From Bdellovibrionales bacterium (GTDB taxonomy: Bacteria; Bdellovibrionota; Bdellovibrionia; Bdellovibrionales; UBA1609): a stretch of 64,000 bases of DNA. The stretch covers positions 2,646-66,645 of the forward strand of contig JALZUS010000018.1 in NCBI GenBank assembly GCA_023299885.1, written 5' to 3'. This document shows positions 1 through 7,460 of the stretch, in pieces. The position numbers and the translations under genes were made by a program. Numbering within the stretch: position 1 is the first letter of the stretch; each line of letters starts with the position of its first letter. The notes under the pieces were generated by a model. It was not told where the DNA came from. It made no database searches and saw nothing but the letters and a program-made list of their open reading frames with translations.

Positions 1-1791
1 TGGCATCTCAAACTGTTCAAAACATTTAGACCAAAAATATCTCTGGCCCTTAGCCTGCTCTCTAAACATTTTTTCACCTGAAATATAAATTGAGTTATTT
101 ATAGCTGCAATTTCTCTAGCAATAGAGTTTTCTTTATAATCTAAATCAATAACATACTTTGGAGACCATTTTTTAGGGATAACACTATTATAATTGCCCG
201 CCGCCCATATAAGCACATCGCAGCTCGACCTCTTTTTACTGCCAAGCCTTGGCTTAGCTTCTCTTGCCGAGTAATAAGAAGTTAAAACAGGCAAAACACT
301 TCTCATAGCTGTTAAGGTTCCACCGCCACCCCACACAACAATGCTTTTATTTTCTATATCTATATTTTTGAATAGGCTTTTTAAACCCTGCACATCAGTA
401 TTTTCACCATAGGTTTTTTTAGAAAAATATATGGTGTTTACGGATACTACTTTTTTTACAGTTTCAGATTTGTGGCTTAAAATTTCTAAGAATGTTTTTT
501 TATAAGGGCTAGTAATTGCCGCAGCCTTTAAGCCTATTTTTCTTAAAAAACTTAAGTCTTTAAATTCTACAGAAGATATTTTTAAAACCGGACAATCTTT
601 ATTATGAAAAAACTGTCGGTGCTCTAAGGGGGTATAGCTATGCTTTATGTTAGACCCTAAAATAGCAGCAAATTGTTTTGTTTGCTTAGGCCTCATCACA
701 AAGTCACTAACATAAGGCTGATCCAGGGCACTTCCATTATTTATTTTTGCAAAATTAATTTTCATTTGAGATTGCAACAAACGATACCACTCCCACCGAC
801 CATTAATAGATCTTGGCAATAGTGACCTACCTGTTTTATTTTCAGCCCACCAATCATGGTAAGTCTCTAAGTCTTTAAAGCTATTTACTTCTGGAGAGAC
901 TTTTAAATGATAATGATTTTGGTATTTATTAAGCCTACCCAAGCTTTCACTGATAGAACCTGAAATATTATGTAACGATAAAATATCAATATCTTTAGGG
1001 GGCTCGCCTAACTCTATAGCCCAATCTTTTTTTATAGTTTCTGGTAACTCGCCTTTAAACGATAAATCTCTATAACTAAAAAGTATTTTATCTTTTGGTA
1101 AAGTATTGATAGCTGTTTTAATTTGATCATCAGTTAATAAATCATCTCGCAATTCAAAAAAGCGCACTGGCCAATGTGACTTATCAGAATACCAATCCGT
1201 AAAATTTTTAAAATGTTGAGGTAAAAGTGTTATCGAAAAATTAGGCCCTCTAGATTCATTTTTTTTAAAGTAAAAGCTAATGAGCTCAGAAATATTACTT
1301 CCGGAAGAGAGCTGTCCAGATTCACCCTGCAAACCTTCTGGCAAAGTAATAACTTTATCGGCCCAATCTGTATATCTTTTTTCACGCTCTTCATAGCGCT
1401 CAAAATACTCTTGCAAAGAACTTACAGAAGCATCAAGCCTAGGCCTATTAGTAAAAATACGGCCTTCTTTATCTGAGTCTCTTCTTAAAAAAATAATTTT
1501 AGCATTTTCAGGGATTTCTCGGTTATAACCGGCACCAACAGCTATATAAAGACTGATATTATTGTGATTAGTATTTTTTATGACAGTAAATAAAGCTTTT
1601 CTTTCTTGCTCTCTAAAATAATTTTCAGAGTAATCATCAAATATTTGAGTGATCTTAAGGCCTGTTTGCTTTTCTATTTCTAAATCTAAATCTAAAAACT
1701 TTTTACTACTGTCTTCGCGGTAAAACTCTGAAAGTTGTTTTAAAAAAGATGTTTTACCTACACCCCTATGTCCTACAATTAAATAAATCAC
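1..1791 (-). CDS. Trifunctional fusion: shikimate kinase / type I 3-dehydroquinate dehydratase-like / shikimate 5-dehydrogenase (AroK-AroD-AroE); 3' end runs off the window
   Basis: Absent from the ORF track because it has no stop inside the window. My minus-strand translation from the GTG at 1791 stays open for 597 codons down to base 1. N-terminus has Walker A GHRGVGKTS (shikimate kinase). Middle region FFELRDD, LSLHNIS, HLKVSPEV and SALDQP aligns with type I dehydroquinase ELRxD, SHHDF, PKIALMP and APGQ. C-terminus has GSNIKHSYTPLEH, ITSPYK, GENTD and WGGGGT (AroE motifs). The GTG start overlaps the aroA stop (GTGA). Confidence 0.8.
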   Translation of the reverse strand, partial: MIYLIVGHRGVGKTSFLKQLSEFYREDSSKKFLDLDLEIEKQTGLKITQIFDDYSENYFREQERKALFTVIKNTNHNNISLYIAVGAGYNREIPENAKIIFLRRDSDKEGRIFTNRPRLDASVSSLQEYFERYEEREKRYTDWADKVITLPEGLQGESGQLSSGSNISELISFYFKKNESRGPNFSITLLPQHFKNFTDWYSDKSHWPVRFFELRDDLLTDDQIKTAINTLPKDKILFSYRDLSFKGELPETIKKDWAIELGEPPKDIDILSLHNISGSISESLGRLNKYQNHYHLKVSPEVNSFKDLETYHDWWAENKTGRSLLPRSINGRWEWYRLLQSQMKINFAKINNGSALDQPYVSDFVMRPKQTKQFAAILGSNIKHSYTPLEHRQFFHNKDCPVLKISSVEFKDLSFLRKIGLKAAAITSPYKKTFLEILSHKSETVKKVVSVNTIYFSKKTYGENTDVQGLKSLFKNIDIENKSIVVWGGGGTLTAMRSVLPVLTSYYSAREAKPRLGSKKRSSCDVLIWAAGNYNSVIPKKWSPKYVIDLDYKENSIAREIAAINNSIYISGEKMFREQAKGQRYFWSKCFEQFEMP

Positions 1792-2957
1792 TTTACGCCT
1801 ACGCAGTCCCAAAACTCCGGGAAGCTCTTATTAACCACATCTTTATCCACAATTTCTATGCGAGTACCCATGGCATTAAGTATCCCTGCTGCCATAGCCA
1901 TTCTATGATCTTTATCCGGATTAAAAACAAAACTATAATTAGACAGCTCTTTATCAGTAGACCCTTTTACAATAAAGCCATCCTCTTTAACTTCTACATC
2001 TCGGCCAATTTCCCTTAAAAGCTCAGCTGTTTTTAAAATTCGATTGGATTCTTTATAAGCTAAATGCTTTGCGCCATACAAATGACTTTCACCTTCAGCA
2101 AAAGCACATAAAACCCCTAGTACAGGAAACAAATCAGGTGACTGGCCAATATCAAAGGCAACAGCTTGAAGAGGGCTTTTAGAAACTGATAACACTTCGT
2201 CTTCTAAAGATATATCAACACCCATTAACTTAAGAATATCCACAAAGACTTTATCTGGCTGCAAGCTGTTTTCTGGAAAGCTTTTTAAACGACAGCTCCC
2301 ATGCAAAGCACCCAAAGCGGCTAAACTAAACATAGAGCTCATGTCTGGCTCCAAAGTATAGAAATGCTGCTGGGGTTTAGATTTTAAAATTGTATATTCA
2401 TTGCCTGATACTTTTATTTTCATACCCAGTTCTTTCACAAGACCTAGAGTCATATTTAAATAAGAATCAGAAACAGCTGATTTACTTTTATTAAAATGAA
2501 GATCAAAATCTAAATCCCAAGAGCTTAAGATAAGAGCCGACACAAATTGACTTGTTTTAGATGCATCTACATAAACAGCATCACCCATAGGCTTCCAACC
2601 ATTAGAATTAATTTTAAGGCTATTGCCAATAATAGCAGCCTCTACACCTAGCTGCCTTAATAATTTAACTAGGCCTTCTTGAGGCCTAGAAAAAAGCCTT
2701 TCACTACCCGTTAAAGTATATTGGCCTGGTACTCTCGACACCCTTAATGCTAAAAACCTTAAAGTTGTACCACCATCTCCGCAGTAAAACTCAGACTGAC
2801 CACCAATTAAATCTGATAAAGCTTTTTTAAGGTGAACTACATCTTCTGATCCAGAGGCACCCTGCACATAAAGTTCATTATTAAAGCTAGAAGCTATCAG
2901 CGCTCTATTTAACAAAGATTTAGAACTACTCAACTGACCTACAAAATTAAAACTCAT
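1788..2957 (-). CDS. aroA: 3-phosphoshikimate 1-carboxyvinyltransferase (EPSP synthase)
   Basis: 389-aa ORF with SSSKSLLNRALIAS near the N-terminus and KESNRI plus DHRMAMAAG near the C-terminus, all typical EPSP synthase motifs. The start overlaps the aroB stop (ATGA). Confidence 0.9.
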   Translation of the reverse strand: MSFNFVGQLSSSKSLLNRALIASSFNNELYVQGASGSEDVVHLKKALSDLIGGQSEFYCGDGGTTLRFLALRVSRVPGQYTLTGSERLFSRPQEGLVKLLRQLGVEAAIIGNSLKINSNGWKPMGDAVYVDASKTSQFVSALILSSWDLDFDLHFNKSKSAVSDSYLNMTLGLVKELGMKIKVSGNEYTILKSKPQQHFYTLEPDMSSMFSLAALGALHGSCRLKSFPENSLQPDKVFVDILKLMGVDISLEDEVLSVSKSPLQAVAFDIGQSPDLFPVLGVLCAFAEGESHLYGAKHLAYKESNRILKTAELLREIGRDVEVKEDGFIVKGSTDKELSNYSFVFNPDKDHRMAMAAGILNAMGTRIEIVDKDVVNKSFPEFWDCVGVK

Positions 2958-3958
2958 TTTTCAACCCAACCTTGGCGAATGGCCTCATCCATTATCTCGA
3001 CAAAACTTACTGGTTTGATTTCAGGCTTTAAGCTTTTATTAATAAATACAAAGTTAACCTCGTCATGGCTTACTTTTTTCTTGTCTTGTAGCAATAGATT
3101 TTTAAATAGGCCCTGAGCTAAAGGTAAAAGAGATTTTCCTTCTTCTGATTGTTGCATTGGTATTTTTCTCTCTAAAGCTTTTTTTTGAATTGATAAATCT
3201 ACATCAAATTTTTTCTCGCTCCATATTAAAGAGAAATGTAACCCCTGACCTACAGCCCACCCATGTGGTAGTCTATGCATAACTTCAAAAGCATGCCCAA
3301 GGGTATGACCCAAATTTAAAACTTGCCGGTCACCCAGCTTTTCATAAGGGTCTTTTTCAACCCATTTATATTTTTCTTCAACAAGTCCTGGAAGTTGCTC
3401 CCATAAATTTTTATCTGCATAAGTATCGATAGAAATTAAAAGCATTTTAAATGCCTCTCCCCAAGCCTGCCGTTTTAAGTTTTCGGGGTTTAACTCTAGC
3501 AACTCTTTAATGATTAGAATTTTTTCAGCTTTATAAAAACTACCTATTTGATTTTTGTAGCTACCACTATTTAAAGCCGTTTTACCACCATGTGATGAAT
3601 CTATAGCTGCTAGCCATGTTGTAGGTATGTGAATCAATGGCACGCCTCTTTTTAAGGTACTTGCTACAAACCCACCGAAATCACCAACAGTACCACCGCC
3701 CATAACTATAATTTTTGAATTTTTAAATGAAAGACTTTTAGAGGCTTCTAAAATTTTATCCATATGCTGTGGAAAAGAAGACAAATCCTTTAAAGACTCA
3801 CCGGCCTCTACAGCATAAGAGCAAGTGAAAGTATCAATAAATTGTTTTGCTTTATCAAAAGTCAGTAAGTGCTTATCGAAAATTAAAAAATGATCAGATA
3901 GTTCTTTTAGCTCGCTCAGTTGATTAATATAAAAAACATCTGAAACTAATGAGGACAT
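2954..3958 (-). CDS. aroB: 3-dehydroquinate synthase
   Basis: 334-aa ORF with the glycine-rich nucleotide loop GGGTVGDFGGFVAS and the metal-binding LNLGHTLGHAFE and HGWAV His motifs of the DHQ synthase family. Confidence 0.9.
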   Translation of the reverse strand: MSSLVSDVFYINQLSELKELSDHFLIFDKHLLTFDKAKQFIDTFTCSYAVEAGESLKDLSSFPQHMDKILEASKSLSFKNSKIIVMGGGTVGDFGGFVASTLKRGVPLIHIPTTWLAAIDSSHGGKTALNSGSYKNQIGSFYKAEKILIIKELLELNPENLKRQAWGEAFKMLLISIDTYADKNLWEQLPGLVEEKYKWVEKDPYEKLGDRQVLNLGHTLGHAFEVMHRLPHGWAVGQGLHFSLIWSEKKFDVDLSIQKKALERKIPMQQSEEGKSLLPLAQGLFKNLLLQDKKKVSHDEVNFVFINKSLKPEIKPVSFVEIMDEAIRQGWVEK

Positions 3959-3960
3959 AC

Positions 3961-4815
3961 TTAGTCACTGCCTCTTAATTTTGGATCAAGAGCATCTCTA
4001 AGCCCATCGCCCATTAAATTAAAACATAAAACTAAAACTAAAATACATAATCCAGGCATAGTAACTAACCAAGAGGCAGTCTCTAAATAGTCTTTAGAGT
4101 CTGTAAGCATAACGCCCCACTCAGGTGTTGGCGCCTGTGCGCCCATCCCTAAAAACCCTAGAGCGGCAACATTTAAAATACCATCACTAAAACCTAAAGA
4201 TGTTTGAACAATAATTGGAGCTAAGCAGTTAGGTAAAATATTAAGAACCGCTTTTCTAAAGTGACTTGCCCCAAAATTTGTATTGGCCATAACATATGAT
4301 TTTTGTTTTTCGGCCATAACAGCAGCACGGATAATCCTAATAAAGTTTGGCAAAGCAACAACACTCACAGCAATAATTCCGTTAATGAGTGATGGGCCTA
4401 ATAAAGCCACAATAACAATAGCTAATAAGATACTAGGCAATGACATAATGACATCAACTAACCTCATAATAAATGCATCTACTTTACCGCCAAAATAGCC
4501 AGCTGATACACCTAGCAACAAACCAAAAATAAGATCTAATACAACAACCATTAAGCCTACGCCAAAGGAAACTCGAGTCCCATAAATGAGGCGGCTTAAA
4601 AAGTCCCTACCTATATCATCAGTCCCTAGTAAATGTAGGTTTCCATTGGCAGCATAAGACATAGGCTGTAATTTATAGGCGTCTTCAAAAATTTCATTAG
4701 GACTATAAGGCGCCAGTAAAGGAGCAAAGATAGCCACAAATAAAAAGCAAATTAATAAAAACAAGGCTACTGTAGCCCCTTTATTTTTAGTGAAATTTTT
4801 AAAAAATGTTTTCAA
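3961..4815 (-). CDS. Dipeptide/oligopeptide ABC transporter permease (DppC/OppC-like)
   Basis: 284-aa polytopic membrane ORF. Has the LGTDDIGRDFLSRLIYG signature of the DppC/OppC N-terminal region. Lies directly downstream of the DppB-like permease. Confidence 0.85.
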   Translation of the reverse strand: MKTFFKNFTKNKGATVALFLLICFLFVAIFAPLLAPYSPNEIFEDAYKLQPMSYAANGNLHLLGTDDIGRDFLSRLIYGTRVSFGVGLMVVVLDLIFGLLLGVSAGYFGGKVDAFIMRLVDVIMSLPSILLAIVIVALLGPSLINGIIAVSVVALPNFIRIIRAAVMAEKQKSYVMANTNFGASHFRKAVLNILPNCLAPIIVQTSLGFSDGILNVAALGFLGMGAQAPTPEWGVMLTDSKDYLETASWLVTMPGLCILVLVLCFNLMGDGLRDALDPKLRGSD

Positions 4816-4857
4816 TATCTACTCCGGCACTTTAAGCCAACAACACAAAATAACAGT

Positions 4858-5874
4858 TTAAGTATTAGAATCTCTTAGCGTTGGATTCACAATAATATAA
4901 GTAATATCCACCATTAAATTTACAAAAATAATAACACAAGCAATTAATAAAATTGAACCTTGTACAATTGGATAGTCTCTCGCCTCTACAGCCGTCACTA
5001 ACCAACGCCCTATGCCCGGCCAAGAAAAAATTGTTTCAGTAAGAATAGCTCCAGTTAAAACAGCGCCTAATAATAAACCAATAACAGTCACAATTGGGAT
5101 CAACGCATTTCTTAAAGCATGAATTACAACAACTGCTTTTAAAGTTAAACCTTTTGATTTTGCAGTTCTAATATAATCTTCACCTAAAACTTCTAATAAA
5201 CTAGAACGGGTCATTCTTGCTATACTTGCAAGTGGCACAGTTGCCAAAACAAAGGCTGGTAAAATTAAATGATGGACTGCGCTTTTAAAAGCTAACCAAG
5301 GCTCGTCGCTAAACCAAGAGTCTATCAAAAGAAGACCTGTAACGCGATTAATGTCATACATAACACTAATCCTGCCAGAAACAGGCGTCCACCCCTTATT
5401 AACCGAGAAAAACATAATTAAAACGAGGGCCCACCAAAAGATAGGCATAGAGTAGCCTACTAAAGACGTCCCCATAAGCGTGTAGTCCCACGGCGTGTTT
5501 CGCTTTACAGCTGCAATAATCCCTATAGGTATACCTATCAAAATAGCAAGGAACATACCTAGGAACCCAAGCTCTATTGTCGCAGGAAATCTTGCAAAAA
5601 ATTCTTTAATTACAGGTTCTCTAGAAACAATAGAGTTTCCAAAGTCACCAGTCATAGCTTTACCAACAAATGAAAAATACTGTTGAATGACAGGTTTATC
5701 TAAACCTAAGTTGGCCTGCATTTCTAAATACATTTCTTCAGAAACACCACGCTCACCAAACATAGCCAAGATAGGATCACCAGGAACCAATCTTATAAAT
5801 GCAAAGGCAACTAAACTAACACCGAACAAAGTCGGTAAAGAAGCGATAAGCCTCTTTACAATTAATTTAAACAT
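4858..5874 (-). CDS. Dipeptide/oligopeptide ABC transporter permease (DppB/OppB-like)
   Basis: 338-aa polytopic ORF. The N-terminal KRL..LPTLFGVS..F..RLVPGDP pattern and the YIRTAKSKGL loop are typical of DppB/OppB permeases. Confidence 0.85.
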   Translation of the reverse strand: MFKLIVKRLIASLPTLFGVSLVAFAFIRLVPGDPILAMFGERGVSEEMYLEMQANLGLDKPVIQQYFSFVGKAMTGDFGNSIVSREPVIKEFFARFPATIELGFLGMFLAILIGIPIGIIAAVKRNTPWDYTLMGTSLVGYSMPIFWWALVLIMFFSVNKGWTPVSGRISVMYDINRVTGLLLIDSWFSDEPWLAFKSAVHHLILPAFVLATVPLASIARMTRSSLLEVLGEDYIRTAKSKGLTLKAVVVIHALRNALIPIVTVIGLLLGAVLTGAILTETIFSWPGIGRWLVTAVEARDYPIVQGSILLIACVIIFVNLMVDITYIIVNPTLRDSNT

Positions 5875-7460
5875 TATTGGATATCAACACCGTAAAAGAT
5901 ATCAGAACCAAATGGACTTTGCGTGTAACCAGTTACACCTTTTGCCATAGCTTTAAAAACTTTTGAATGAGCAATAGTAACCCAAGGCACCTGCTGTTTA
6001 AAAATAGCCTGAGCTTCTTTGTAATGCTTAGAGCGAAAACCAATATCAGTACTTACTTTTGCGCGCTCAACATGAAATTGGTATTTTTTATTACACCAAC
6101 GAGCATAGTTACTACCCGCTTTAACTGCAGCACATCCCAATAAAGTATTAAGGAAATTATCAGGATCACCATTGTCACCCGTCCAACCCAGCTGAAGCAT
6201 ATCATGCTCCCCTGCAGACGCCTTCTTTAAATACTCAGTCCACTTAAATGTTACTAGTTTTACTTTGATACCTACTTTAGCTAAATCAGCCTGCATCATT
6301 TCACCCATCTTTTTACCCGATGGGTTATATGGGCGGCTTACAGGTAAAGTCCAAATTGTTGTTTCAAAACCATTTTCTAATCCAGCTTTTTTTAATAACT
6401 TCTTTGCCTTTTCAGGATCAAAATCATAACCCTTAGTTGCTTTTTGGTAAGACCACATTGTCGGTGGTATTGGGTTCTTAGCTACTGTTGCATTGCCTAA
6501 GTAAATAGCCTTCATGTAAGCTTCTCTGTTAAGAGCATGATTAATAGCTTGCCTTACTAATACATTATCAAAAGGCTTCTTTTCAGTATTCATAGCGAGG
6601 TAACCTACGTTTAACCCTGGCTGACTAATTACTTTTAATTTTTTATTAGCTCTTATACTTGCAATATCTGTTACAGATGGTTCATTCACAAAGTGACACT
6701 CTCCTGCTTTAAGCTTTTGAGTTCTAACACTTTTATCTGTTGTAATACTGAAAATTAGGTTATCAATTTTTGCTTTACCTTCGTAGTAACCAACATGAGC
6801 TGTGTATCTAATAAGAGTATCTTTAACATACTTTTTAAATACAAAAGGGCCGGTTCCCACTGGAAGCATATCAATTTTTTCTTTTTGTTTTTTAGCCGCT
6901 AAATGGTCTCCGTACTCTGCTGATAAGATACTTGCAAAGTCCATTGCTAAGTTAGCCAAGAAAGGAGCCTCTGGGCGAGTTAGTATAAATTTAATTTTAT
7001 ACTCATCAAGCTTTTCTACTTTTGAAATAACTTTGCCCATGTCCATACTTCTGAAGTATTCATATGTACCACCGTTAACTAAATGGTATGGGTGGCTTTT
7101 ATCCATCATCCTGTTAAAAGAAAATAAAACATCGTCAGCATTAAATGTACGCTTAGGTGTATAGTTTTCTGTTGTGTGAAATTGAACACCTTTTCTTAAA
7201 TCAAAAGTAAATTCTTTACCATCTTTTGAAACAGTCCATTTAGTGGCTAAACCTGGGCTTACTTTTGTGCTCCCCTGTTTAAATTCTACAAGGCGGTTAT
7301 AGATTGTGCGCGAGCTTGCATTAAAAGTAGCTCCATCTGTACCTAACTGAGGATTAAAAATCTTTGGGCTAGCCTCAGAGCAATAAACAAAAGTTTTCTT
7401 TTTTGCTGCCGATAAATTAAAAGCCATAAATAAACTTATTAGAAAAGTTATTAAACGCAT
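5874..7460 (-). CDS. ABC transporter substrate-binding protein, family 5 (DppA/OppA-like)
   Basis: 528-aa ORF with a signal peptide (MRLITFLISLFMAFNLSAA). Length and sequence are typical of peptide/nickel-binding family 5 proteins. It is the first gene of the permease operon and overlaps the next gene by 1 nt. Confidence 0.85.
   Translation of the reverse strand: MRLITFLISLFMAFNLSAAKKKTFVYCSEASPKIFNPQLGTDGATFNASSRTIYNRLVEFKQGSTKVSPGLATKWTVSKDGKEFTFDLRKGVQFHTTENYTPKRTFNADDVLFSFNRMMDKSHPYHLVNGGTYEYFRSMDMGKVISKVEKLDEYKIKFILTRPEAPFLANLAMDFASILSAEYGDHLAAKKQKEKIDMLPVGTGPFVFKKYVKDTLIRYTAHVGYYEGKAKIDNLIFSITTDKSVRTQKLKAGECHFVNEPSVTDIASIRANKKLKVISQPGLNVGYLAMNTEKKPFDNVLVRQAINHALNREAYMKAIYLGNATVAKNPIPPTMWSYQKATKGYDFDPEKAKKLLKKAGLENGFETTIWTLPVSRPYNPSGKKMGEMMQADLAKVGIKVKLVTFKWTEYLKKASAGEHDMLQLGWTGDNGDPDNFLNTLLGCAAVKAGSNYARWCNKKYQFHVERAKVSTDIGFRSKHYKEAQAIFKQQVPWVTIAHSKVFKAMAKGVTGYTQSPFGSDIFYGVDIQ

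What the first reader, a model, noticed from the sequence alone, without database searches (positions are those of the whole stretch)
1..3958. Shikimate genes in the exact domain order of the eukaryotic pentafunctional AROM protein, with the last three fused
Seen in the sequence: on the minus strand the order is aroB (3958-2954), aroA (2957-1788), then a single open frame carrying AroK, AroD-like and AroE domains (1791 to beyond base 1). The gene junctions are the 4-nt overlaps ATGA and GTGA.

Established: the fungal and protist AROM polypeptide has the domain order DHQ synthase, EPSP synthase, shikimate kinase, dehydroquinase, shikimate dehydrogenase. Bacterial aro genes are usually monofunctional and dispersed.

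Inference: this translationally coupled B-A-(K-D-E) arrangement is either a bacterial relative or an intermediate of the arom supergene, or a convergent one. The K-D-E fusion was invisible in the supplied ORF track because it has no stop inside the window.
Basis: partly seen in the sequence, partly recalled or inferred. Interest (0 to 1): 0.6.

Follow-up and report, generated by a model that had tools for sequence, protein, structure and literature searches.

The report
Bacterial three-enzyme shikimate fusion, AROM-like order
An uncultured relative of the predatory bacterium Bdellovibrio has its chorismate-pathway genes in the same order as the fungal five-enzyme AROM protein, with three enzymes fused into one protein. 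One of the three is a dehydroquinase too diverged for standard annotation to detect. The arrangement is common to the whole bacterial order, and nothing here shows it is related to AROM by descent.

Summary
On the minus strand lie aroB (2954-3958), aroA (1788-2957) and one open frame (1-1791). They are joined by ATGA and GTGA overlaps.

The contig continues to the left of the window. The frame stops two codons beyond base 1, giving a 599-aa protein, and aroC follows it.

The protein has three parts:
- a shikimate kinase;
- a compact, very divergent type I dehydroquinase that Pfam and NCBIfam miss;
- a shikimate dehydrogenase.

All three active-site residue sets are invariant in 68 homologues.

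In 301 Bdellovibrionota genomes, 84 carry this fusion, 104 carry type II dehydroquinase and 10 carry canonical type I. No genome has more than one of the three. So the middle domain is very probably the pathway's dehydroquinase.

The fusion is not special to this window. It is conserved across Bdellovibrionales and is deposited in databases as 'shikimate kinase'. Relatives also have aroA-K-D-E and aroB-aroA fusions, always in AROM order. No bacterial five-domain protein was found.

Trees of DHQS, EPSPS, SDH and their concatenation never place the bacterial clan beside AROM. AU tests do not exclude that placement either (p 0.15-0.27).

The genome appears to use chorismate for menaquinone rather than for aromatic amino acids.

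This scan has already reported the same family in at least 32 other genomes.

The parts
2954..3958 (-). aroB, 3-dehydroquinate synthase (334 aa). Its stop overlaps the aroA start (ATGA). Its ATG lies 2 nt after the dppC stop.
   Evidence: Pfam DHQ_synthase 102.9 bits plus DHQS_C 52.3 bits. TIGR01357 186.6 bits. Best solved relatives are bacterial DHQS 1xag and 1ujn at about 112 bits. Junctions shown.
1788..2957 (-). aroA, a compact class I EPSP synthase (389 aa). Its stop overlaps the GTG start of the fusion gene (GTGA).
   Evidence: Pfam EPSP_synthase 186.2 bits. TIGR01356 251.9 bits. Best solved relatives are class I bacterial enzymes (5xwb, E. coli 1g6s, 118-122 bits). Junction shown.
1..1791 (-). 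aroK-aroD-aroE fusion gene. The protein is 599 aa, of which 597 codons lie in the window. The last 2 codons and the TAA stop lie just left of base 1.
   Evidence: It is 100% identical to database cluster P0002 and has at least 265 homologues of about 600 aa. AlphaFold2 model pLDDT 93.2, pTM 0.92. The best Foldseek matches are AROM 6hqv and the SK+DHQase+SDH piece of C. albicans Aro1, 7tbv.
1312..1791 (-). Shikimate kinase domain (residues 1-~160). It has the P-loop G7-H-R-G-x-G-K13-T, plus D34/D36, R60, G86-A-G88, R116 and R136.
   Evidence: Pfam SKI 53.2 bits against a cut-off of 22.1. The named residues are invariant in 68 homologues. Solved shikimate kinases match.
697..1251 (-). Divergent, compact type I 3-dehydroquinate dehydratase domain (residues ~181-365). 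It has E213-x-R215-x-D217, R241, S272-x-H274, K297 (the presumed Schiff-base lysine), R337 and D357-Q358-P359.
   Evidence: There is no Pfam or NCBIfam hit. The family profile aligns continuously over DHQase plus SDH of plant DHQ-SDH 2gpt (181-591, E 1e-19). The domain profile hits type I DHQase 2ocz (E 0.009) with the Glu/Arg, Arg, His and Lys motifs in register. The domain model has pLDDT 92.8, and its top Foldseek hits are type I dehydroquinases 2ox1, 5swv and 2egz (TM 0.55-0.60). These residues are invariant in the family. There is no other dehydroquinase in this genome. The distribution in the phylum is complementary.
1..684 (-). Shikimate dehydrogenase domain (residues ~370-599) with a shortened Rossmann half. 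It has H384-S385-x-T387-P388, K431, N452-T453, D466, G488-G-G-G491 and R510.
   Evidence: Pfam Shikimate_dh_N 31.1 bits against a cut-off of 27. TIGR00507 scores 66 bits, below its cut-off. The family profile aligns full length to solved AroE 2hk9 (367-595, 81.6 bits). The named residues are invariant or nearly so.
3961..7460 (-). Context: dppC (3961-4815), dppB (4858-5874) and dppA (5874-7460). These are dipeptide ABC importer genes on the same strand, directly upstream of aroB.
   Evidence: Pfam and NCBIfam hits. There is a 2-nt gap between dppC and aroB. The dpp-aroB linkage is also seen in L014 and L018.

Best explanation
The window's left end carries most of a chorismate-pathway operon, aroB-aroA-aroKDE, and aroC follows just outside the window. 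The genes are tightly packed, with 4-nt start/stop overlaps, so they are probably translationally coupled (inferred).

The third gene encodes one 599-aa protein that is predicted to catalyse pathway steps 3, 4 and 5. These are dehydroquinate to dehydroshikimate (a cryptic, compact type I dehydroquinase using a Schiff-base lysine, K297, and H274), then dehydroshikimate to shikimate (an NADPH-dependent AroE-type domain), then shikimate to shikimate 3-phosphate (the N-terminal AroK-type kinase).

Together with an unlinked type I-beta DAHP synthase, the genome has all seven steps. The only chorismate-using enzyme found is an isochorismate-synthase-like gene next to the DAHP synthase and ubiE/menG. 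Phe and Trp branch markers were not found. So the pathway most likely feeds menaquinone.

The fusion is an ancestral trait of Bdellovibrionales and some other Bdellovibrionota, not a peculiarity of this genome. Relatives differ only in which neighbouring genes are joined: B | A | KDE, B | A-KDE, or B-A | KDE. The junction is a few residues long and one frame shift apart.

The identity of order with eukaryotic AROM is real. It is most likely a parallel outcome, or too ancient to trace, and nothing here demonstrates shared descent.
For: Gene structure and overlaps.

Domain identities.

Fold: the full-length model has pLDDT 93.2 and matches the AROM SK-DHQase-SDH module and plant DHQ-SDH (TM 0.54/0.63). 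The middle domain alone matches type I dehydroquinases best.

Active sites: all three residue sets are invariant in 68 homologues of 36-74% identity.

Pathway hole: there is no PF01487 or PF01220 match in this 92%-complete genome.

Complementary distribution in 301 Bdellovibrionota genomes: K-D-E in 84, type II DHQase in 104, canonical type I in 10, and none with two of these. The single genome of the window's own family that lacks K-D-E has aroQ.

Other steps and downstream use: DAHP synthase and aroC are present. One chorismate-binding enzyme is found and it is isochorismate-synthase-like. No prephenate dehydratase or IGPS is found. A related contig continues aroC-menB-menF-menD.

Conserved order aroB-aroA-KDE-aroC.

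Fusion variants.

Fusion state changes at least twice within the clan.

Trees.
Against: No enzyme activity, transcript or protein has been observed. Everything is inferred from sequence, predicted structure and distribution.

The middle domain fails both curated dehydroquinase models. It matches solved type I enzymes only weakly (E 0.009 by profile; TM 0.55-0.60).

The SDH domain scores far below NCBIfam equivalog cut-offs and has a shortened nucleotide-binding half.

The genome is 92% complete, so the absence of aroD/aroQ, pheA and trpC is not proven for this genome.

The statement about parallel origin rests on weakly resolved backbones and very long stems (1.2-3.1 substitutions per site). 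The AU tests do not reject a Bdello+AROM clan.
Confidence: 0.82

Rival explanations
1. The bacterial cluster and eukaryotic AROM share descent. Either AROM was built from an operon of this type (B-A-K-D-E order, progressively fused), or an AROM gene was transferred to an ancestor of Bdellovibrionota and then split.
For: The order of five activities is identical and differs from the pathway order. All intermediate fusion grades exist in bacteria in that order: B|A|KDE, B|A-KDE, B-A|KDE. The top Foldseek and profile hits of the fusion are AROM chains. AU tests do not reject a Bdello+AROM clan in any data set (p 0.145-0.269). One quick search even preferred that clan.
Against: Careful ML trees of EPSPS, DHQS, SDH and the concatenation all separate the two clans. 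The EPSPS split has 100/95 support. AROM's high rank comes from summing three domains. For aroA and aroB, and in the single-sequence search of the fusion, bacterial enzymes score higher. AROM's dehydroquinase is canonical (197 bits to Pfam), whereas the bacterial one is unrecognisable to Pfam. Domain orientation differs from AROM (TM 0.25-0.31). No bacterial five-domain protein was found.
Confidence: 0.13
2. The middle domain is a catalytically dead spacer or scaffold, as reported for the dehydroquinase domain of Candida albicans Aro1 (recalled from the literature, not checked here). On this reading, step 3 is done by an unrecognised enzyme elsewhere, or the intermediate is taken from prey.
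For: There is no Pfam or NCBIfam dehydroquinase hit. The match to solved type I enzymes is only marginal. The domain is about 20-40 residues shorter than typical type I enzymes.
Against: The residues equivalent to the type I Glu/Arg pair, substrate Arg, general-base His and Schiff-base Lys are invariant across 68 sequences that are only 36-41% identical overall. The distribution is perfectly complementary with aroQ and canonical aroD in 301 genomes. The pathway's six other steps are retained.
Confidence: 0.06
3. The single long frame is an assembly or frameshift artefact that joins separate aroK, aroD and aroE genes.
For: The genome is a fragmented assembly of 86 contigs.
Against: The same full-length architecture occurs in at least 265 independent database clusters, including complete Bdellovibrio genomes, and in 84 of 301 genomes. 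The identical protein is on record (P0002). The confident single-chain model has pTM 0.92.
Confidence: 0.01

Closest known systems
Eukaryotic pentafunctional AROM / Aro1 polypeptide (fungi, protists; PDB 6hqv, 7u5s, 7tbv)
   Same: The five activities are the same and lie in the same N-to-C or 5'-to-3' order: DHQS, EPSPS, SK, type I DHQase, SDH. The SK-DHQase-SDH module is contiguous on one chain. AROM chains are the top structural and profile matches of the fusion.
   Different: Here there are three genes, not one polypeptide. Relatives have two, but none was found with five domains. Identity is only 14-16% in structural alignment, and domain orientation differs (TM 0.25-0.31). AROM's dehydroquinase is canonical whereas this one escapes Pfam. 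Trees do not join the two groups. aroC is part of the bacterial cluster.
Bifunctional DHQase-SDH of plants and of Chlamydiae/Planctomycetota (PDB 2gpt, 2o7s, 6bmb; NCBIfam PRK09310)
   Same: A type I dehydroquinase is fused directly upstream of shikimate dehydrogenase. This is the best global structural agreement (TMq 0.54, TMt 0.63 over about 500 columns), and the profile alignment runs continuously over residues 181-591. In the SDH tree the bacterial clan attaches near bacterial D-E fusions, though weakly.
   Different: This protein has an additional N-terminal shikimate kinase, a much more diverged and shorter dehydroquinase, and a shortened Rossmann domain. It scores only 51 bits against a PRK09310 cut-off of 598.
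Other bacterial shikimate fusions (AroK-AroB PRK13951/PRK14021; AroA-Cmk; TyrA-AroA)
   Same: Neighbouring pathway enzymes are joined in one chain. The kinase domain is of AroK type.
   Different: The partners and order are different. None of these includes a dehydroquinase, and none reproduces the AROM order (one search shows only partial, below-cut-off matches).
The Bdellovibrionota K-D-E family itself, as deposited in public databases ('shikimate kinase', 'shikimate synthase', 'shikimate dehydrogenase')
   Same: The window's protein is a member, at 36-74% identity over its full length. It has the same three domains, the same invariant residues and the same operon.
   Different: This copy comes from a small (1.84 Mb), AT-rich (about 35% GC) uncultured lineage. 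Its nearest database relative is 74% identical. No paper describing the family was found in the held library.

Membership tests
Shikimate kinase (AroK/AroL, Pfam PF01202) | Match to the curated family model above its gathering score | tested here: met
   SKI scores 53.2 bits against a cut-off of 22.1, over residues 9-149.
Shikimate kinase (AroK/AroL, Pfam PF01202) | P-loop GxxGxGK[ST], plus the shikimate-binding Asp, Arg and Gly-rich motif | tested here: met
   G7 H8 R9 G10 G12 K13, D34, D36, R60, G86, G88, R116 and R136 are invariant in 68 homologues. The mapping onto known SK residues is from my knowledge of the family.
Type I 3-dehydroquinate dehydratase (AroD, Pfam PF01487) | Match to the curated family model | tested here: not met
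   No PF01487 hit at E <= 0.01 for the protein, nor at E <= 1 in a six-frame search of the genome. No NCBIfam aroD hit on this stretch.
Type I 3-dehydroquinate dehydratase (AroD, Pfam PF01487) | TIM-barrel fold of type I dehydroquinases | tested here: met
   The domain model (pLDDT 92.8) has type I dehydroquinases as its best Foldseek hits: 2ox1 (E 7e-4, TM 0.56/0.60), 5swv and 2egz (TM 0.60/0.58). The agreement is moderate, because this is a compact variant.
Type I 3-dehydroquinate dehydratase (AroD, Pfam PF01487) | Schiff-base Lys, general-base His, and Glu/Arg and Arg of the substrate pocket | tested here: met
   The profile alignment to 2ocz puts ElRdD on EWRAD, SfR on TLR, SlH on SYH and lKlA on VKIA. 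E213, R215, D217, R241, H274 and K297 are invariant.
Type I 3-dehydroquinate dehydratase (AroD, Pfam PF01487) | Dehydroquinase activity | not testable with these tools
   Supported indirectly. No other dehydroquinase is present in this genome. There is zero overlap with aroQ or canonical aroD in 301 genomes.
Shikimate dehydrogenase (AroE) | Substrate-binding N domain (PF08501) with catalytic Lys and Asp | tested here: met
   Shikimate_dh_N scores 31.1 bits against a cut-off of 27. K431 (in TSPxK) and D466 (in NTD) are invariant.
Shikimate dehydrogenase (AroE) | Rossmann NADP-binding domain with a glycine-rich loop; curated equivalog score | tested here: inconclusive
   G488-G491 is invariant, and the full-length profile aligns to AroE 2hk9. 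However, there is no PF01488 or PF18317 hit, and TIGR00507 scores 66 bits against a cut-off of 200. The domain is shortened.
Pentafunctional AROM polypeptide (Aro1) | All five domains on one polypeptide | tested here: not met
   There are three separate genes with stops. No five-domain bacterial relative was found with a concatenated query.
Pentafunctional AROM polypeptide (Aro1) | Order DHQS-EPSPS-SK-DHQase-SDH | tested here: met
   The gene and domain order is aroB, aroA, K-D-E. The AROM order is taken from PMC6851490.
Pentafunctional AROM polypeptide (Aro1) | Phylogenetic membership in the AROM clade for each domain | tested here: not met
   AROM (18 sequences) and the Bdello-type sequences each form a separate, fully supported clan. 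They are not adjacent in the EPSPS, DHQS, SDH or concatenated trees. The constraint is not rejected by the AU test (p 0.145-0.269).
Bifunctional DHQase-SDH (plant / PRK09310 type) | Type I DHQase directly N-terminal to SDH, with a similar didomain arrangement | tested here: met
   The profile alignment is continuous over 181-591 against 2gpt residues 12-497. TMq is 0.54 and TMt 0.63. The curated PRK09310 cut-off is not reached (51 against 598).

The most novel reading that the evidence does not exclude
The Bdellovibrionota aro supergene and eukaryotic AROM share a common ancestor. On this reading AROM was assembled by stepwise fusion of a bacterial operon already ordered aroB-aroA-aroK-aroD-aroE. 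The bacterial series B|A|KDE, B|A-KDE and B-A|KDE would then preserve living intermediates of that process.
Probability: 0.12. Interest if true: 0.8.

Novelty: new variant of a known kind. Interest (0 to 1): 0.4.

Why it matters
The finding matters for three reasons.

1. It closes an annotation hole. Bdellovibrio and its relatives appear to lack any dehydroquinase in standard annotation, yet they keep the other six steps. The cryptic domain explains this, and the deposited names ('shikimate kinase') understate a three-enzyme protein.

2. The phylum offers a natural series of fusion states of the same genes in the AROM order. This series could be used to test experimentally what fusion buys, for example channelling, stoichiometry or stability.

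3. If the AROM order arose twice, that argues for a structural or regulatory constraint on domain order. If it arose once, the series bears on the origin of a textbook eukaryotic supergene.

For this particular window the finding is an ordinary member of that family.

Tried and rejected
**Searches that gave little or nothing**
- Pfam and NCBIfam scans gave no dehydroquinase hit.
- A single-sequence search of solved structures showed nothing for the middle domain.
- The paper searches gave nothing on this family. Richards et al. 2006 (PMC1563581) is not held.
- My last homologous-protein search, made with an AROM EPSPS domain to fish out the nearest bacterial enzymes, returned only fragments of fungal AROM genes. 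It was wasted.
- A first degenerate DNA pattern had too few specified bases.
- The promoter/terminator scan showed nothing above shuffled expectation in the cluster.

**Ideas considered and rejected**
- A 1366-aa open frame in L017 looked like a possible bacterial penta-fusion. However, aroB lies in another frame there, so it is aroB plus A-K-D-E.
- The quick EPSPS tree and its AU test gave a misleading sign, with the constrained tree scoring better. The careful search reversed it.
- I did not build a tree of the dehydroquinase or kinase domains. The former is too diverged to align reliably, and with only three clans a D-E tree carries no topological information.
- I did not look for RNA evidence for this uncultured genome.

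Full report
**1. What is in the sequence**

The window is C18:2646-66645 of a 1.84-Mb, 86-contig, about 92%-complete genome. GC content is about 35%.

On the minus strand, the ORF listing finds aroB at 2954-3958, aroA at 1788-2957, and a frame that runs from 1812/1791 off the left end. Reading the contig beyond the window shows three things:
- The frame stops two codons past base 1.
- The protein is 599 aa counted from the GTG that overlaps the aroA stop.
- A chorismate synthase gene follows on the same strand after 12-21 nt. It passes the NCBIfam cut-off.

The GTG start is supported by the family consensus, which begins MIxxxVGHRG. Upstream, dppA-dppB-dppC end 2 nt before the aroB ATG.

**2. 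The three domains**

Pfam recognises SKI (residues 9-149) and Shikimate_dh_N (377-454). It finds nothing for residues 160-370. NCBIfam behaves the same way.

A search of 5.8 billion protein clusters found at least 265 full-length homologues of about 600 aa. Nearly all those that carry a name are from Bdellovibrio, Bdellovibrionales or Oligoflexia. They are deposited as 'shikimate kinase', 'shikimate synthase' or 'shikimate dehydrogenase'.

In an alignment of 68 of them (36-74% identical to the query), the invariant columns include the following:
- the kinase P-loop and substrate residues;
- in the middle region, E213, R215, D217, R241, S272, H274, K297 and R337;
- in the dehydrogenase, S385, K431, N452, D466 and G488-G491.

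A profile of the whole family aligns continuously from residue 181 to 591 with the plant dehydroquinase-shikimate dehydrogenase 2gpt (E 1e-19). A profile of the middle region alone hits the type I dehydroquinase 2ocz. The hit is marginal (E 0.009), but four motifs are in register: ElRdD on EWRAD, SfR on TLR, SlH on SYH and lKlA on VKIA. From my knowledge of type I dehydroquinases, those positions are the Glu/Arg pair, the substrate arginine, the general-base histidine and the Schiff-base lysine.

AlphaFold2 on the family alignment gives a confident model (pLDDT 93.2, pTM 0.92). Its best Foldseek matches are these:
- Chaetomium AROM 6hqv (E 4e-25);
- the SK+DHQase+SDH fragment of Candida Aro1, 7tbv, over about 700 columns;
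- plant DHQ-SDH, with the best global superposition (TM 0.54/0.63).

The middle domain folded alone (pLDDT 92.8) has type I dehydroquinases as its top hits, at TM 0.55-0.60. It is therefore a compact, strongly diverged type I dehydroquinase barrel. It does not pass the family's curated model.

**3. Does the middle domain do the job?**

The genome has no match to either dehydroquinase family. It does have the rest of the pathway: a type I-beta DAHP synthase on another contig, plus aroB, aroA, aroC and the kinase and dehydrogenase domains.

The same 301 sampled Bdellovibrionota genomes were searched three times:
- The K-D-E protein is in 84 of them, including 17 of 18 in the window's family and 35 of 35 in the neighbouring family.
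- Type II dehydroquinase is in 104.
- Canonical type I is in 10.

Comparing the handle lists, no genome has two of the three. The one genome of the window's family without K-D-E (G241) has aroQ, and so does G140 of family f5. Related genomes are not independent samples, so I attach no statistic. The pattern is nevertheless what replacement of one dehydroquinase by another predicts.

**4. What the pathway is for here**

Only one chorismate-binding enzyme is found. It is isochorismate-synthase-like and lies next to the DAHP synthase and a ubiE/menG methyltransferase. Prephenate dehydratase and indole-glycerol-phosphate synthase were not found, with the caveat of 92% completeness. On a related metagenomic contig the cluster continues aroC-menB-menF-menD. 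I infer that chorismate mainly feeds menaquinone.

**5. The arrangement in relatives**

The order aroB-aroA-KDE-aroC is kept in every Bdellovibrio-like locus examined. A virtual query made by concatenating the three window proteins found the following:
- A-K-D-E fusions of about 970 aa in Bdellovibrionaceae and Pseudobdellovibrionaceae assemblies;
- B-A fusions of about 750 aa;
- no bacterial five-domain protein.

Loci from three further families show aroB followed by an A-K-D-E fusion. One contig has a B-A fusion followed by a divergent K-D-E. That K-D-E was confirmed by profile comparison (probability 99.9 over 561 columns, with the catalytic motifs kept). True B-A fusions also occur in a family that uses aroQ and lacks K-D-E.

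In the window, aroA ends ...KSFPEFWDCVGVK and the next protein begins IYLIVGHRG. In the fused relatives the same two blocks are contiguous. Fusion and fission are therefore one small indel apart. On the EPSPS tree, the A-K-D-E forms fall in two clades that are paraphyletic to the unfused forms. The state has therefore changed at least twice.

**6. Relation to AROM**

The AROM sample came from an HMMER scan of 1.84 billion representatives with a fungal AROM fragment. Spot checks show that the sample includes a fungus, a ciliate, two rhizarians and a EukProt transcriptome. One cluster turned out to lie on giant-virus-like contigs.

A broad, named bacterial sample of class I EPSPS came from a degenerate-motif scan of species genomes. 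DHQS, dehydroquinase and SDH genes were then taken from 30 of those genomes.

Careful IQ-TREE analyses (LG+C20+F+G4 by PMSF) gave the same picture each time:

| Data set | Rows | Placement of the two clans | AU p for a joint clan |
|---|---|---|---|
| EPSPS | 113 | All 23 Bdello-type sequences form one clan (100/100) and AROM forms one clan (100/100). They are separated, with the Bdello clan beside Bacteroidota. The split {Bdello + Bacteroidota + 1} versus {AROM + rest} has 100/95 support. | 0.145 |
| DHQS | 61 | Separated | 0.189 |
| SDH domain | 66 | Separated. The Bdello stem is 3.1 substitutions per site and attaches weakly near bacterial D-E fusions. | 0.269 |
| B+A+E concatenated | 44 taxa, 1076 columns | Separated | 0.263 |

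Similarity ranking against solved structures likewise puts bacterial enzymes ahead of AROM for aroA and aroB, and in the single-sequence search of the fusion.

There is thus no positive evidence of kinship. The backbones are weak and the stems long, so kinship cannot be excluded. I put it at about 0.12-0.13.

**7. Comparison with what is known, and novelty**

The protein works like the C-terminal three fifths of AROM and like plant DHQ-SDH with a kinase added. It is not a member of AROM, for three reasons: it has separate genes, it lies in a separate clan, and its domain packing differs.

The family exists in public databases under incomplete names. I found no paper on it in the held library. 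That library lacks most subscription journals, and the key paper on AROM origins could not be read.

This scan has reported the same family, its four-domain variant and the B-A plus K-D-E variant before, in at least 32 other genomes and with similar conclusions. I consulted those notes only after forming my reading, and I re-derived the points I use.

The window's copy is an ordinary member of an interesting, under-described family.

Noticed in passing
L222:10001-14368 (ENA ERZ17158617 contig, 67 kb) and L221:855-5222: An intact 1455-aa pentafunctional AROM gene sits among giant-virus-type genes at dense, intron-free spacing. The neighbours include a DUF5906 D5-like primase-helicase, RFC1/Rad17, DUF5871, P11_C and DNMK. 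The cluster (P0276/P0407) has 30 members on contigs up to 292 kb. This looks like a Nucleocytoviricota-like genome carrying the whole AROM enzyme.
   Followed up: partly
window 3959-7460 (-); also L014:2-1487 and L018:6928-9094: dppA-dppB-dppC end 2 nt before the aroB start codon. dppC-aroB adjacency recurs in G086, and a dppF-like ABC ATPase lies directly upstream of aroB in G211. A peptide-importer/shikimate linkage therefore seems conserved in this order.
   Followed up: partly
L014:525-3354 (G086, same family as the window): aroB is followed directly by the K-D-E gene, with no aroA between them. aroA must lie elsewhere in that genome.
   Followed up: no
G273:C1:1733808-1735832, G243:C1:710938-712959, G058, G194 (family f19, genus g74): True aroB-aroA fusions (736-aa open frames without stops) occur in a Bdellovibrionota family that has type II dehydroquinase and no K-D-E fusion.
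   Followed up: partly
L182, L184, L186, L188, L189: Canonical type I dehydroquinase lies in 490-560-aa open frames together with shikimate dehydrogenase, forming D-E fusions. These are found in Scalinduaceae, Nitrospinales, Gemmataceae and Phycisphaerae genomes.
   Followed up: no
own genome, contig C3 (L004:290-2982): An isochorismate-synthase-like gene, the type I-beta DAHP synthase and ubiE/menG lie side by side. This forms a second small chorismate/menaquinone cluster away from the window.
   Followed up: partly
L002:397-1482 (+), left of the window: A 361-aa response-regulator receiver fused to a histidine-kinase-like C-terminal half lies convergent to aroC (translation). It was not examined.
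   Followed up: no
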